DNA of 39,761 bases from the sequence record MG197996.1; one strand, given 5' to 3'. The notes below the pieces were generated by a model. It had not been told where the DNA came from. It saw nothing but the letters and a program-made list of their open reading frames with translations, and did not search any database. Positions within the stretch are counted from its first letter, which is position 1. Each line of letters starts with the position of its first letter. This document shows, piece by piece, positions 25,040 to 29,431 of this stretch. Origin of the DNA: Escherichia phage APC_JM3.2. The position numbers and the translations under genes were made by a program.

Positions 25040-25317
25040 CGGAAAGCCACGGATGGTTAGTTGCAGTCTTTTTTATATAAATCTCTGTCCATAAATCCTC
25101 CTGTTTACCAAAACTATATCAAACTTTAACGCAATGCTGCGCAACTTAAGTGACTGTCAGGTTGATAACAGACACTCTTTTTTGCATGATTCCTTTAGAC
25201 CATCACAATTGATGAAGAATCATGAAAAGAAGAACTCTTCTAAAGTCTTTGCTCGGCCTGACGTCACTCTTACCAGTTAAGTTTGCAGCATCTCAAAACC
25301 TGCAAGGTAAAAGTATA

Positions 25318-27216
25318 ATGTCAGACATTACACCCAATGTTGTAGTGAGTATGCCTTCGCAACTCTTCACTATGGCTCGTTCTTTTAAAGCCGTAGCTAA
25401 TGGAAAGATTTATATCGGGAAAATTGACGCTGACCCGGTAAACACTGAAAACCAGATTCAGGTTTATGTAGAGAACGAAGATGGTTCTCACGTTCCTGTT
25501 TCGCAACCAATCATCATTAACGCTGCTGGATATCCGGTATATAACGGACAGATTGCTAAATTCGTTACCGTGCAAGGCCATTCTATGGCTGTTTATGATG
25601 CCTATGGTGCTCAGCAATTCTATTTCCCAAACGTGCTGAAGTATGACCCGGACCAGGCATTGCCAGCATTTAAGGCTGATTTGACTGGTCCTGATGGTGC
25701 TGCCCTTGTTGGTTATGGAGATTCCACTGTCGAGGCAGAGTTAGACATCCTGACTGCATCTAATGGGTGGTACGTAACTCCTGATCAGTTCGGCGCGAAG
25801 GGTGATGGCACTACCGATGACACAGCGGCGATTAGTGCGGCAATTGCTGAGTGTGCTTCTACAGGGAAAACATTGCTCCTGCTTAATAAACGCTATGTGT
25901 GGAATGGGCCAACCACATCCACCGATAAAATATCCGTTATGGGAGTCCGTCGCCCAAGTCCTGACGCGACGCTATCCAAGCTGGAAAACGGCAGCATCAT
26001 TGTCGGTACCATGATATTTTCCGGAACTCGTGTTCAGGTGCAAAACTTTGGTGTAGACCACGGTTCAGCCACATTCACTTCTGGTGGTGATGCGCTAGTG
26101 CTTTCCGCAACTGGAAAGAATGGGCTGTTTGGTATCATCCGAAACTGTGTAGGTCTTGGAAGAAACTCATCTGACGCTTACCATGCAATTCTCTGTGAGG
26201 GTTACAAATACTCAACGGTGAGAGATATCATTGGCTGCCAGAACTTATATGGCTATGCACAGAAATGTAATTATTCCGTATCAAGCGGTATTGTAGTAAA
26301 AAACAACCAAAACGGAATAATCATCAAATCAGACAGTGTATTTGGCGATGGAAGCCAATCAATTCTTAGTGATGCTGTTATTGATGGTAATGGATTAACA
26401 TCTATTGGCGTTTGGGTTTTCTCGATGGATGCACAACTTCAAAAAGTAAACATAAGTAACGTGACCTCGTCTGGTTGCTCTTATGATATCGTGGTGCAGG
26501 CTGCTGAGAGCGTCATTAATGAAATTAATATTAATAACGTAGCTACGAGTTTATCACGCATTGCATCAATCTGCCTGGCTGGAACTGCAGTTGATAAAAT
26601 TTACACAGCCAATATCAGCAATGTTGCTATAGGTGAAGCAGCGGGACTGCTAATAGATGCCCAGACATGTAACTTCCTTAACCTGACAAACGTAACTGGA
26701 CGAATAACAAACGAATCAACGCATGCTAACGACTCAATAAACATTGGAGCATTAGTAGGAAGCTCTAACATTAGCAACGTGTTCCCTACCATCAACTACA
26801 GTCAGGATGTACTTGCTGGCATTACCTATCTTAATAACTATAAAAACAACACGCTTACCAATTATAAGGCGAACGTGTTTGGTGTTGGGGCTCCGAAACC
26901 AGGTTACGACACGCAAAACATTGATACCAATGTCGGAAGCATGTACCTGAGGAGCAGTGCAACTAACTCTTCATTCCTGAGGTTAACGCCACTTAGTAAC
27001 TCATCCATTACGACGCTTAACATCACCACTCAAGCAGGTGGAGTGATAAGCCCGGGTTACACATGGTGGTTACAAAACGCATCACCATCATTCACGCTGT
27101 CTATAGTTCCATCATCAGGAGGTCACATCGTCACTTCAGGCAACTCTACCAAGGTGCTTAGCGGTGGAGACAAGATAGGATTCATGTTCGACGGAGAGAC
27201 ATGGATTCAGATTTGA
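25318..27216 (+). CDS. Tailspike protein: conserved P22-family head-binding domain plus divergent right-handed beta-helix receptor domain
   Basis: N-terminus [34 protein letters not shown]... (P22-family tailspike head-binding domain); downstream [15 protein letters not shown] motif typical of pectate-lyase-fold depolymerases. Confidence 0.85.
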
Positions 27217-27484
27217 TGATGCAGCCATGGATGGCTACATGAATGGGTGGTGCTTGTTTACGAAGTAAACCAGAAGCACAAACGCGACGATGTTAATTGC
27301 AACTACAATTTTGCTATTCATCAGTGACCCCTATAGGTAGGTAAAGTTAGAGTCTCATTGATTTCCATGTACATTCAAGTCTCCATGGTCTTGCGTGTCT
27401 ATCATTCAGTCTTACACTCGTACTTCTACCACTCAAAAAATTCCCTATACGCATTCGCCTGCTTAGCAAAAGCATACTCCATTC

Positions 27485-27532
27485 TTGTTGAACTCCGCCA
27501 CCTACAAATAATTACTGTATGTGCATGCAGCG
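27485..27532 (+). promoter_or_regulatory. Candidate sigma70 promoter with overlapping LexA-like (SOS) box upstream of the UmuD'-like gene
   Basis: -35 TTGTTG 27485-27490, 17-nt spacer, -10 ATAATT 27508-27513; TACTGTATGTGCATGCAG 27513-27530 has CTG-N10-CAG and a perfect TACTGTAT left half. Confidence 0.4.
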
Positions 27533-27549
27533 ATTATCGGAGGTGCATC

Positions 27550-27846
27550 ATGGGATTCCCCAGTCCTGCACAAGACTGCATAGAGGAGCACATATCGATC
27601 GACAAGCGCATCATATCGAGGCCAGTGGCTACCTACTTCATGAAAACGGGGGCAACACACTACCGGGAAGGCATCCTAAGTGGCGCTCTCTTTGCCGTTG
27701 ATGCATCTTTGAACCCATGTGATGGCTCATTGCTGGTTTGTGCAACTGATGGTGAGTTCAGAATTAAGCGTTACCTGACATACCCGCAACCGCATCTGGA
27801 AAATCTGGATAACGGAAAGAGGGAGAGGATTCCTGACAAGAATTAG
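27550..27846 (+). CDS. UmuD'-like (peptidase S24 fold) protein lacking the catalytic serine, C-terminally shortened
   Basis: 98-aa ORF, GGAGGT RBS 7 nt upstream; MGFPSPAQDCIEE..PVATYF..DGEFRIKRY aligns by eye to E. coli UmuD from Gly25 (the UmuD' N-terminus); GDSM serine site replaced by ATHY. Confidence 0.65.
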   Translation: MGFPSPAQDCIEEHISIDKRIISRPVATYFMKTGATHYREGILSGALFAVDASLNPCDGSLLVCATDGEFRIKRYLTYPQPHLENLDNGKRERIPDKN

Positions 27847-27951
27847 GCCTCTGAGACTTCTCGACCTGTATTTGTGGTGATCACCTACATCATCAACGAT
27901 GCGCGTGCAGGTTAGTTTGATGACTACCCGCTGAAGTGAAAATTGTGTTGT

Positions 27952-28245
27952 GTACCAAATTGCGTACCAAACTAAAATCACAAATCATGAAACCCTTGTT
28001 CATGGCGGTTCTCAGGGGTGTTGCGCGTAATCGTGAAAGAGGAAGGTAGGTTGTTTATCTGTGTCTGTCATTGTCTAGCATTGTCCACTGTAGTTAATTA
28101 ACTGTATGTTATAACTCGAAAAACAACCCTTTTTTAACCTGAGTATGTCTACGAACGTCAAATATAGTTGTTTACTGTGCGCTGTTGTCCATGTGATATT
28201 GTGTACCAGATGTGTACCAAACTATTATTTCTGAGCGTACCAAAT
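27952..28245. repeat. attP: attP-like region with five direct arm-type repeats GTACCA(A/G)A(T/C) upstream of int
   Basis: GTACCAAAT 27952-27960, GTACCAAAC 27964-27972, GTACCAGAT 28203-28211, GTACCAAAC 28214-28222, GTACCAAAT 28237-28245. Confidence 0.45.
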
Positions 28246-28252
28246 ATTATTT

Positions 28253-29431
28253 ATGGCTATAAGCGACACAAAACTGCGTACTATTTATGGTAAACCATAT
28301 TCGGGCCCACAAGAAGTGGCTGATGCCGATGGCCTCAGCGTACGAATTTCACCGAAGGGGGTCATCCAGTTCCAGTACCGCTATCGCTGGCATGGCAAGC
28401 CTAATCGACTTGGGCTTGGTCGATACCCATCCCTGTCTTTGAAGGATGCCAGACAGATCACTGCTGACTTGCGAAAGCTCTATTTCTCAGGAACGGATCC
28501 ACGCACTTATTTTGAAGAGAAGGTGGAGAACTCCATGACGGTCGCCCAGTGTCTTGACTACTGGTTCGACAACTACGTCTCTACAACTCTCAGAGAAAAG
28601 ACCCAGGCACTTTACCGATCAACGGTTATGAAGCGCATGCATGACGCCTTTCCTAATCGTCCGGCATCTTCTATCACGGTTAAGCAATGGGTTGACCTGC
28701 TTACCGAAGAAGAAAGAGATAATCCACGCCGAGCAAGGCAGGTGCTAAGCCAACTAAGATCAGCAATAAGTTGGTGCATGCGGCGTCAGTTGATAGATAG
28801 TTGCGCAATTATGAGCATCCAACCAAGGGACTTCGGCTCCCGCGCTGAGGTAGGGGATCGGGTACTGTCGTATCACGAACTGGCTAAGATTTGGCTTGCT
28901 ATTGAAAGAAGCCGTGCGTCTACCTCAAATAAGCTACTTCATCAGATGCTTATGCTGTGGGGGGCGAGGCTCTCAGAGCTTAGGCTGGCAAAAAAGACAG
29001 AATTTGACCTACTGGAAAACGTATGGACCGTACCGAAAGAGCATAGCAAGATGGGTAATGTTATCCGCCGTCCAATCTTCGAACAAATTAAGCCTTTCCT
29101 CGAAAAGGCCATGACAACGTACAATGATGTTCTTTTCTCTGGAGAAGACATAAACAAACCGATCAGCATCGCTGCAGCCAACCGATTCGTAAATAGAATA
29201 AGGGGAGGGATGGATCTCGGTTACTGGCGAACACACGATTTCAGAAGAACGCTTGTTACACGTCTGTCCGAGATGAATGTCGAGCCTCATGTTACTGAGC
29301 GAATGCTCGGTCATGAACTTGGCGGGATAATGTCCGTATACAATAAACACGACTGGATAGAGGCTCAGCGCAAAGCGTATGAGCTTCACGCTGATAAATT
29401 GTTCTGGCACATCAGGAGCATTTCTGATTAA
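28253..29431 (+). CDS. int: Tyrosine integrase (arm-binding N-terminal domain, P4/CP4-57-like)
   Basis: 392-aa ORF; N-terminal DGLSVRISPKGVIQFQYRYRW... arm-binding type; C-terminal catalytic region with HDFRRT and VYNKH (catalytic Tyr). Confidence 0.9.
   Translation: MAISDTKLRTIYGKPYSGPQEVADADGLSVRISPKGVIQFQYRYRWHGKPNRLGLGRYPSLSLKDARQITADLRKLYFSGTDPRTYFEEKVENSMTVAQCLDYWFDNYVSTTLREKTQALYRSTVMKRMHDAFPNRPASSITVKQWVDLLTEEERDNPRRARQVLSQLRSAISWCMRRQLIDSCAIMSIQPRDFGSRAEVGDRVLSYHELAKIWLAIERSRASTSNKLLHQMLMLWGARLSELRLAKKTEFDLLENVWTVPKEHSKMGNVIRRPIFEQIKPFLEKAMTTYNDVLFSGEDINKPISIAAANRFVNRIRGGMDLGYWRTHDFRRTLVTRLSEMNVEPHVTERMLGHELGGIMSVYNKHDWIEAQRKAYELHADKLFWHIRSISD

What the first reader, a model, noticed from the sequence alone, without database searches (positions are those of the whole stretch)
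27485..27846. SOS-box-fronted UmuD'-like moron lacking the catalytic serine
A 98-aa ORF between tailspike and attP/int begins MGFPSPAQD..., aligning by eye to E. coli UmuD exactly from Gly25, the N-terminus of the RecA-activated cleavage product UmuD'. The serine of the GDSM site is replaced (ATHY), the lysine is kept (RIKRY) and about 20 C-terminal residues are absent. Its own promoter-like sequence overlaps a LexA-type box (CTG-N10-CAG with a perfect TACTGTAT half). This looks like a pre-activated, non-cleavable UmuD' mimic under SOS control, which could modulate host Pol V or RecA-dependent processes during induction. Phage P1 HumD is a known UmuD' homologue, but this truncated, serine-less form in a P22-like phage would be distinct.
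Basis: partly seen in the sequence, partly recalled or inferred. Interest (0 to 1): 0.65.

Follow-up and report, generated by a model that had tools for sequence, protein, structure and literature searches.

The report
Nonsense-truncated phage HumD (UmuD') gene
The 98-codon ORF is a copy of the known phage gene humD (a ready-made UmuD' subunit for the host's error-prone polymerase, repressed by LexA) that two stop-codon mutations have cut short, so it is most likely a decaying gene, not a new kind of regulator.

Summary
An ORF at 27550-27846 (+) starts MGFPSP, aligned to Gly25 of E. coli UmuD. It has Thr where UmuD has the catalytic Ser and keeps the Lys. A CTGT-N9-CAG LexA-type box (27513-27532) ends 17 nt before the ATG.

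The ORF passes NCBI's curated HumD model (142.6 bits, cutoff 120). The "missing" C-terminus is still encoded in frame behind the stop codon. Reading through TAG 27844-46 and TAG 27913-15 to TGA 27937-39 restores a 129-codon HumD frame (175.4 bits). Both TAGs replace GAG (Glu) of intact relatives.

Thr at the nucleophile position is ordinary for the family: 96 of 109 close relatives, and 27 of 76 assignable IMG/VR loci. A LexA box in front of the gene is also a family trait (75 of 80 loci; annotated in P1 and phiKO2). The window's box carries a private A->G change that weakens it.

The window is phage APC_JM3.2, where the ORF is already annotated "DNA polymerase V subunit". The same double-amber allele occurs in phage Huey and in about 30 prophage contigs. 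Other P22-like prophages carry independently broken copies.

Best reading: a recently inactivated humD moron. Interest is low.

The parts
27485..27512 (+). Weak sigma-70-like promoter: -35 TTGTTG (27485-90), 16-nt spacer, -10 AATAAT (27507-12)
   Evidence: Read from the sequence. It falls below the threshold of the consensus scan. Inference only.
27513..27532 (+). LexA-type operator TACTGTATGTGCATGCAGCG. It carries G at box position 15 (27527), where all 8 other alleles of this locus have A.
   Evidence: PWM 14.6 bits, the top site in the window. The Huey-type allele scores 20.5 bits, and boxes of intact relatives score 21-26 bits at the same distance from the ATG. The HI-like score is 9.2 against 5.8 for the Huey type. 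Homologous sites are annotated as LexA binding sites in P1 and phiKO2.
27539..27545 (+). Shine-Dalgarno GGAGGTG, 4 nt before the ATG
   Evidence: Sequence. The same GGAGGTGCATCATG junction occurs in related prophage alleles.
27550..27846 (+). 98-codon ORF, the N-terminal three quarters of a HumD-family gene. Thr36 (27655-57) sits at the Ser60-equivalent position and Lys73 (27766-68) at the Lys97-equivalent position. It ends at TAG 27844-46, which replaces the GAG (Glu99) of relatives.
   Evidence: NF051876 HumD 142.6 bits (cutoff 120), Pfam PF00717 27 bits, PHROG 811. Codon comparison. An identical protein is annotated in phage APC_JM3.2.
27847..27939 (+). In-frame continuation of the humD frame: codons 100-121 (ASETSRPVFVVITYIINDARAG), second TAG at 27913-15 (GAG in relatives), codons 123-129 (FDDYPLK), and the ancestral stop TGA at 27937-39
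   Evidence: Read-through translation raises the HumD model score to 175.4 bits and covers profile positions 1-121 of 129. Alignment to HK140, P1 and P0003. There is no frameshift.
27924..27939 (.). Mosaic junction. From about 27924 the sequence differs between alleles attached to different integration modules.
   Evidence: Alignment of 9 distinct alleles. Flanking genes differ: dacD-sbmC side, ybhB-bioA side, and a third integrase.
28026..28038 (.). Approximate attP crossover region of the 2851-type integration module
   Evidence: Identity between prophage attR copies and the phage ends at 28038. Stx-phage prophage records begin at window 28026. The humD frame ends about 90 nt upstream, so integration does not cut it.

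Best explanation
This is the humD gene of the P22-like temperate phage APC_JM3.2.

What intact copies do. HumD is a stand-alone, pre-processed UmuD' homologue. It sits as the last gene before attP and is repressed by host LexA through an operator just upstream of its ribosome-binding site. In intact relatives (129 aa; P1 HumD is the tested case) the protein is made when DNA damage inactivates LexA. It substitutes for UmuD' with the host's UmuC, so error-prone translesion synthesis needs no RecA-mediated cleavage step.

What happened here. Two GAG->TAG nonsense mutations, at codons 99 and 122, interrupt the frame. The translated product is a 98-aa fragment. It lacks the last beta-strand and the family's most conserved block (FGVITYIINDARxGEFDDCP). 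This copy has also changed residues that are conserved in other members, and its LexA operator carries a weakening point mutation. The most likely state is a recently inactivated gene. It may still be transcribed and damage-inducible, but it probably no longer supplies UmuD' function.

Shown versus inferred. Shown: family membership, the nonsense codons, the conserved downstream frame, the homologous operator, and recurrent decay elsewhere. Inferred: loss of function, LexA binding, and partnership with host UmuC.
For: 1. HumD equivalog model: 142.6 bits for the 98 aa. The score rises to 175.4 bits, covering profile 1-121 of 129, when the frame is read through the TAG.
2. Both TAGs correspond to GAG (Glu) in HK140, PI6 and P0003. 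There is no frameshift up to the family's normal stop.
3. Of the 120 best homologues, 107 are 120-135 aa, mostly 128-129 aa.
4. The part lost behind the first TAG includes about 18 of the family's invariant or nearly invariant positions: F108 G109 V110 I111 T112 Y113 I115 N116 D117 A118 R119 E122 F123 D124 D125 P127.
5. The window and Huey alleles deviate at 7-8 of 57 columns that are at least 95% conserved. The median for 109 relatives is 1 and the maximum is 5. One deviation is G109V in the invariant FGV motif, downstream of the stop.
6. A LexA box upstream is a family trait: 75 of 80 IMG/VR loci have a site of at least 15 bits, median 23.5 bits, and 40 of them lie 14-19 nt from the ATG. Such sites are annotated in P1 and phiKO2. 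The window alone has G at 27527, which lowers the score from 20.5 to 14.6 bits.
7. Independent disruptions of the same gene occur in other P22-like prophages. BTP1 has TAG at codon 29 plus a frameshift. The P0057 type has a stop at codon 96. L034/L035 have a frameshift near codon 89. P0045 has a stop at codon 122. More than 500 E. coli genomes keep only a 3' remnant next to the 2851-type att site.
8. The window has no suppressor tRNA and no UmuC homologue.
9. P1 HumD is described as an already-activated short UmuD (PMC7092418, citing McLenigan et al. 1999; P1 record annotation).
Against: Pairwise dN/dS against intact relatives is still low (0.06-0.17 before the stop and 0.09-0.35 after it). 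The decay signal is therefore recent and statistically thin.

The double-amber allele is not a one-off. It occurs unchanged in two haplotypes, on at least 32 contigs, joined to at least 2-3 different integration modules. It has persisted through some recombination. That fits neutrality but does not exclude a useful truncated product.

The operator, Shine-Dalgarno sequence and start codon remain intact, so a 98-aa protein is probably made.

No expression or activity data exist. The structure predictions were too poor to judge whether the fragment folds (pLDDT 49 and 57).
Confidence: 0.75

Rival explanations
1. The 98-aa fragment is itself functional. It would be a truncated UmuD'-like protein that still binds UmuC, UmuD/UmuD' or RecA filaments but cannot form the normal dimer. 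It would then act as a damage-induced modulator (for example a dominant-negative) of host Pol V. This is essentially the first reader's idea.
For: The promoter-like sequence, LexA box, Shine-Dalgarno sequence and ATG are retained. The allele persists on at least 32 contigs and across several integration modules. Other prophages also keep N-terminal ORFs of 89-95 aa behind good LexA boxes. dN/dS of the 98 codons against relatives is low.
Against: The truncations in different lineages arise by different lesions at different codons (29, ~89, 96, 99, 122), and some add frameshifts. That is the pattern of decay, not of a conserved short isoform. The apparent clustering near codons 89-99 is largely ascertainment, because the search query was the 98-aa N-terminus. 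The window lineage has substitutions at otherwise conserved residues inside the retained part: R14H, L17I, A33T, L48F, R76L. The low dN/dS mostly reflects the long pre-mutation history, since dS is saturated.
Confidence: 0.15
2. The amber codons are read through, by low-level natural UAG read-through or in hosts with an amber suppressor. Small, tunable amounts of full-length HumD would then be made.
For: Both interruptions are TAG, both lie in frame with no frameshift, and the downstream frame still looks like HumD, adding 33 bits to the model score. A 121-aa allele that ends at the second TAG exists on its own (P0045).
Against: The phage has no tRNA gene. GAG->TAG is a single G->T change, and a third G->T (GGG->GTG, G109V) hits an invariant glycine downstream, which suggests the downstream part is no longer under selection. 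Two consecutive UAGs would reduce the yield multiplicatively. No read-through signal is known here. Other lineages break the gene by frameshift.
Confidence: 0.05
3. The real gene is the longer ORF that begins upstream: TTG 27358 (162 aa), or the ATG annotated in phage Huey (159 aa). This would give a UmuD-like protein with an N-terminal arm.
For: The frame is open upstream to 27358. The Huey record and some E. coli records annotate a 159-aa 'UmuD-like'/'DNA repair' protein.
Against: The extension would run through the LexA box and the Shine-Dalgarno sequence. It has no similarity to any family: the HumD model match starts at residue 1 of the 98-aa ORF. Of 80 family loci, 78 start at MGFPSP. 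P1 has an in-frame stop a few codons upstream (sequence).
Confidence: 0.03

Closest known systems
Bacteriophage P1 HumD (NCBIfam NF051876 'HumD family'; McLenigan et al. 1999, J Bacteriol 181:7005, cited in PMC7092418 and PMC4713147)
   Same: It starts MGFPSPA at the UmuD Gly25 equivalent and has no cleavable arm. It is an orphan with no umuC partner in the phage. A LexA operator ends 17-19 nt before the ATG. Identity is 58% over the conceptual 121 residues.
   Different: P1 HumD is 129 aa and intact, and has Ser at the nucleophile position (ADSH). The window copy has Thr (GATH), nonsense codons at positions 99 and 122, several changes at conserved residues, and a weakened operator.
UmuD-like genes of lambdoid and N15-like phages: HK140 gp28, HK639 gp28, N15 gp26, phiKO2 gp23
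   Same: Same family, and the same position after the tail fibre or tailspike genes next to attP/int or the partition genes. All are LexA-box controlled. HK140 gp28 is 74% identical and also has Thr (GATH). It sits next to the same 2851-type attP/int module.
   Different: Those genes are intact at 128-129 aa. In HK140 and phiKO2 the box is shared with a divergent dinI gene, which is absent here.
humD remnants in other P22-like prophages: Salmonella BTP1, E. coli P0057-type prophages, Dewey/Louie, mEp234, Sf101
   Same: Same locus between tailspike or O-antigen conversion genes and attP. The LexA box is retained and the coding frame is broken.
   Different: Different lesions: a stop at codon 29 or 96, frameshifts, or 5' deletions. 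These are independent events.
E. coli UmuD/UmuD' (S24 peptidase family, PF00717; PDB 1UMU, 1I4V, 8GMT)
   Same: Same fold family. The alignment covers the whole UmuD' chain from its first residue (E 1.6e-14), and the Lys97 equivalent is kept.
   Different: There is no N-terminal arm or Cys24-Gly25 cleavage site and no adjacent umuC. Ser60 is Thr. The score against the UmuD subfamily model is 65 bits, below its cutoff of 110.

Membership tests
HumD family (NCBIfam NF051876) | Sequence scores above the curated cutoff of the equivalog model | tested here: met
   142.6 bits for the 98-aa ORF and 175.4 bits for the read-through frame, against a cutoff of 120.
HumD family (NCBIfam NF051876) | Translation starts at the residue equivalent to UmuD Gly25 (M-GFPSP), so the protein has no arm to cleave | tested here: met
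   Alignment to 1umu_A starts at chain residue 1. 78 of 80 family loci start MGFPSP. A strong Shine-Dalgarno sequence lies 4 nt upstream.
HumD family (NCBIfam NF051876) | Full length of about 128-129 aa, including the conserved C-terminal block FGVITYIINDARxGEFDDCP | tested here: not met
   The ORF stops at codon 99. The block is encoded downstream in frame, but behind TAG 27844-46, with a second TAG at 27913-15 and a G109V change. This is a disrupted member, not an intact one.
HumD family (NCBIfam NF051876) | LexA operator immediately upstream (SOS control) | tested here: inconclusive
   A box is present at the family-typical position. It scores 14.6 bits (HI-like 9.2), inside but near the weak end of the range of E. 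coli operators recalled from memory. Relatives score 20-26 bits. LexA binding was not measured.
HumD family (NCBIfam NF051876) | Functionally replaces UmuD' with host UmuC in SOS mutagenesis | not testable with these tools
   Needs a genetic complementation assay. It is known only for P1 HumD (literature cited in PMC7092418).
S24 self-cleaving peptidases (LexA/UmuD, PF00717) | Ser-Lys catalytic dyad | tested here: not met
   The Ser60 equivalent is Thr36 and Lys73 is kept. Thr is also the majority state in intact HumD relatives (96 of 109).
S24 self-cleaving peptidases (LexA/UmuD, PF00717) | Cleavage-site region (Cys/Ala-Gly) N-terminal to the catalytic core | tested here: not met
   The protein begins at the Gly that follows the UmuD cleavage site. 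The upstream open frame has no family similarity.
S24 self-cleaving peptidases (LexA/UmuD, PF00717) | Pfam domain match above the gathering score | tested here: met
   PF00717 scores 27.0 bits against a cutoff of 23.3, over residues 1-76.

The most novel reading that the evidence does not exclude
The amber-truncated 98-aa HumD fragment is not junk. It would be a LexA-controlled, monomeric UmuD' decoy that binds UmuC, UmuD' or RecA* and dampens or retimes host Pol V mutagenesis while the prophage is being induced. The recurrent independent loss of the HumD C-terminus in P22-like prophages would then reflect selection for such decoys, or selection against a costly constitutively 'activated' UmuD'.
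Probability: 0.08. Interest if true: 0.5.

Novelty: new member of a known kind. Interest (0 to 1): 0.15.

Why it matters
It matters little as a discovery, but the correction is useful.

The gene belongs to the known HumD family. In this family, phages carry a pre-activated UmuD' under LexA control, so host error-prone polymerase V can be armed without the RecA cleavage checkpoint. The traits that looked special are not. 'No serine' is the family norm, and 'short' is the result of a nonsense mutation.

Two points are of modest wider interest. First, this moron is repeatedly broken in P22-like and lambdoid E. coli and Salmonella prophages while its LexA operator survives. That hints that a pre-activated UmuD' is dispensable or costly. 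Second, current annotations of the locus are inconsistent. They include 'DNA polymerase V subunit', a 159-aa 'UmuD-like protein', and, in BTP1, an opposite-strand hypothetical gene laid over the remnant.

Tried and rejected
- AlphaFold2 models of the intact relative P0003 (pLDDT 49.4) and of the 98-aa ORF (pLDDT 57.2), each with 42-43-sequence alignments, were too poor to judge folding of the fragment. I did not run fold searches on them.
- Pairwise Nei-Gojobori dN/dS before and after the stop was uninformative. dS against the nearest intact relatives is saturated (0.9-3). The two double-amber haplotypes differ at only 5 sites in the ORF, 3 nonsynonymous and 2 synonymous.
- The bare CTGT-N9-CAG pattern is not enriched in the window, with 4 found against 5.0 expected. 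The full 20-mer consensus with up to 3 mismatches finds nothing. The case for the box therefore rests on PWM rank plus positional homology.
- An Rfam scan of 27150-28300 found nothing.
- The primary HumD paper (PMC94175) is not in the held library. A whole-word 'HumD' literature search returned mostly unrelated papers.
- I considered and rejected that integration at attP cuts the gene. The crossover lies about 90 nt downstream of the frame's TGA.
- I considered and rejected the 162/159-aa upstream-extended ORF (see rival explanations).
- The apparent clustering of truncation points at codons 86-99 among database proteins is largely ascertainment from using the 98-aa query.

Full report
**What is in the sequence.** The window is the complete 39,761-bp genome of Escherichia phage APC_JM3.2, a P22-like podovirus from a chicken caecum. 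The length matches the genome announcement (PMC5754480). The exact 98-aa protein is in public databases as 'DNA polymerase V subunit [Escherichia phage APC_JM3.2]'. The ORF runs from ATG 27550 to TAG 27844-27846 on the + strand, and GGAGGTG lies 4 nt upstream. It sits between the tailspike gene (ends 27216) and the attP/integrase module (int 28253-29431).

phmmer against PDB sequences aligns residue 2 of the ORF with the first residue of the UmuD' chain 1umu_A, which is Gly25 of UmuD, at E 1.6e-14. Ser60 of UmuD pairs with Thr36 and Lys97 pairs with Lys73.

**Family.** Pfam gives a modest S24 hit: PF00717, 27 bits against a cutoff of 23.3. NCBIfam is decisive. The curated equivalog model NF051876, 'HumD family', scores 142.6 bits against a cutoff of 120. 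The UmuD subfamily model scores only 65 bits against a cutoff of 110. PHROGs gives phrog_811, 'UmuD-like protein'. So the ORF belongs to the family founded by phage P1 HumD. The literature describes HumD as an already-activated, shorter UmuD (PMC7092418, citing McLenigan et al. 1999). The P1 record annotates it as complementing UmuD' and as preceded by a LexA site.

**The 'missing' C-terminus is not missing from the DNA.** Translation in the same frame past the TAG gives ASETSRPVFVVITYIINDARAG, a second TAG (27913-15), FDDYPLK, then TGA (27937-39). This lines up residue for residue with the C-termini of intact 129-aa relatives:

| Relative | C-terminal sequence |
|---|---|
| HK140 gp28 | ...EVSDTSRPVFGVITYIINDARSGEFDDYPLK |
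| P0003 | ...EASDTSRPVFGVITYIINDARSGEFDDCPVM |

Reading through the first stop raises the HumD model score to 175.4 bits and extends coverage to profile positions 1-121 of 129. At both TAG positions the relatives have GAG (Glu), so each stop is a single G->T change, and there is no frameshift. Of the 120 best database homologues, 107 are 120-135 aa, mostly 128-129 aa. The segment cut off contains the family's most conserved block, F108-R119 and E122-P127.

**The 'serine-less' trait is the family norm.** In 109 full-length relatives the Ser60-equivalent residue is Thr in 96, Ser in 11, Ile in 1 and Ala in 1. Lys is kept in 104. In 80 IMG/VR loci the residue is Ser in 49 and Thr in 27. P1 HumD has Ser (ADSH). 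Intact HK140 gp28 has the same GATH as the window.

**LexA box.** TACTGTATGTGCATGCAGCG (27513-27532) is the best site in the window for a PWM I built from 27 E. coli operators. I recalled those operators from the published compilations, so the matrix rests on my memory and is not a curated file. The site scores 14.6 bits. That score alone is not significant genome-wide, because 23 of 200 shuffles reach it. Position is what settles it. The box ends 17 nt before the ATG. Boxes of 20-26 bits lie at 14-19 nt in Huey, P1, N15, HK639 and BTP1 and in 40 of 75 box-bearing IMG/VR loci. In all, 75 of 80 IMG/VR loci have a site of at least 15 bits within 300 nt, with a median of 23.5 bits. P1 and phiKO2 annotate these sites as LexA binding sites.

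The window's copy is the weak one. Eight other alleles of this same locus read ...CATACAG..., which differs from the recA operator at only three positions and scores 20.5 bits. The window alone has G at 27527. That base occurs in 1 of 75 family boxes and in none of the 27 operators. An HI-like index is 9.2 for the window against 5.8 for the Huey type. This is still inside the range of the reference operators, whose maximum is 10.1, so some LexA control probably remains.

**Is the truncation real, and how old is it?** The same two TAGs occur in phage Huey (98.7% identical over this stretch). They also occur on at least 32 contigs from isolates and metagenomes, so they are not sequencing errors. 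These contigs fall into two haplotypes that differ at 5 positions in the ORF (3 nonsynonymous, 2 synonymous) and at none between the two TAGs. The tailspike-humD cassette is joined, from about 27924 onward, to at least two or three different integration modules: the dacD-sbmC side, the ybhB-bioA side, and a third integrase.

Pairwise dN/dS against intact relatives is low both before and after the first stop, and dS is saturated. So the gene was under purifying selection for most of its history, and the lesions are recent.

Signs of relaxed constraint are nevertheless visible. The window and Huey alleles deviate at 7-8 of 57 columns that are at least 95% conserved, against a family median of 1 and a maximum of 5. 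One of these is G109V in the invariant FGV motif beyond the stop.

**Context in other phages.** HumD-family genes are common at this map position in lambdoid, N15-like and P22-like phages. So are broken copies:

| Source | Lesion |
|---|---|
| Salmonella BTP1 | TAG at codon 29 plus a frameshift, behind a perfect LexA box; the remnant is unannotated |
| Abundant E. coli P22-like prophage type (P0057) | Stop at codon 96; one copy adds a frameshift |
| L034/L035 | Frameshift near codon 89 |
| P0045 | Stops at the same second TAG only |
| More than 500 of 5,426 complete E. coli genomes | Only the last ~130 nt remain next to the 2851-type att site |

The lesions differ in kind and position, which is the signature of repeated decay. 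The apparent concentration of truncation points near codons 86-99 among database proteins is largely an artefact of searching with the 98-aa N-terminus.

**Mechanism.** Intact family members are inferred to act as P1 HumD does. LexA represses the gene. After DNA damage it is expressed, and its product substitutes for UmuD' with host UmuC, bypassing RecA-mediated cleavage. The phage has no UmuC homologue. In APC_JM3.2 the product is a 98-aa fragment lacking the terminal strand and the conserved C-terminal block. It is most probably non-functional (confidence 0.75).

I cannot exclude a residual or dominant-negative activity of the fragment (about 0.15). Amber read-through is also not excluded (about 0.05): the phage has no tRNA, and the downstream G109V change argues against it. 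Structure prediction did not help, with pLDDT of 49 and 57.

**Verdict.** It is a disrupted member of a known, curated family and is already annotated in the source record. Interest is low.

Noticed in passing
window 27235-27321 (- strand): A 28-codon ORF encodes a very hydrophobic peptide (MNSKIVVAINIVAFVLLVYFVNKHHPFM). It lies between the tailspike stop and humD and is transcribed divergently from humD. It is 100% conserved and unannotated in phage Huey. It has no PHROG or Rfam match. Its size and composition recall small membrane or type I toxin peptides, some of which (TisB, DinQ) are LexA-regulated.
   Followed up: partly
window ~27924 onward; loci L001, L008-L025: The same tailspike-humD(amber) cassette is joined to different integration modules: the 2851-type int next to dacD-sbmC, a module next to ybhB-bioA, and a third integrase in L010. 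The recombination junction falls inside the last ~5 codons of the humD frame.
   Followed up: partly
window 28026-28038: The attP crossover of the 2851-type module lies here. Prophage attR copies are identical to the phage up to 28038, and Stx-phage prophage records start at 28026. The HK140 record's 'putative attP', which overlaps the umuD-like gene, is broader than the crossover found here.
   Followed up: partly
locus L007 (Salmonella phage BTP1, NC_042346) 2464-2900: An unannotated humD pseudogene (TAG at codon 29 plus a frameshift near codon 100) sits behind a perfect LexA box, TACTGTATTAATATACAGTA. The record instead annotates an opposite-strand 'hypothetical protein' (gp17) across it.
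   Followed up: partly
HumD family alignments: HumD proteins never need self-cleavage. Even so, the Ser60-equivalent position is Ser or Thr in 107 of 109 relatives and in 76 of 76 assignable IMG/VR loci, and the Lys97 equivalent is kept in 104 of 109. I did not look into why a dyad-like pair is conserved in a pre-cleaved protein.
   Followed up: no
window 27844, 27875, 27913: Three disabling changes in the 3' third of the frame are all G->T transversions: GAG->TAG twice and GGG->GTG at the invariant Gly109. The sample is small, but the mutational bias is noticeable.
   Followed up: no
window 25222-25317: The mechanical tailspike ORF (664 aa) begins 32 codons upstream of MSDITPNVV, the P22-type head-binding N-terminus. 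Gene calls on related contigs give 632 aa, so the true start is probably ATG 25318.
   Followed up: no
loci L002 (HK140) 1910-2262 and L005 (phiKO2) 881-1201: In lambdoid and N15-like relatives the humD LexA box is shared with a divergent dinI gene. HK140 also has an extra small ORF (gp27) between the box and humD, and about 21 of 80 IMG/VR loci show this arrangement, with the box ~255-262 nt upstream. The APC_JM3.2 cassette has neither dinI nor the gp27-like ORF.
   Followed up: partly
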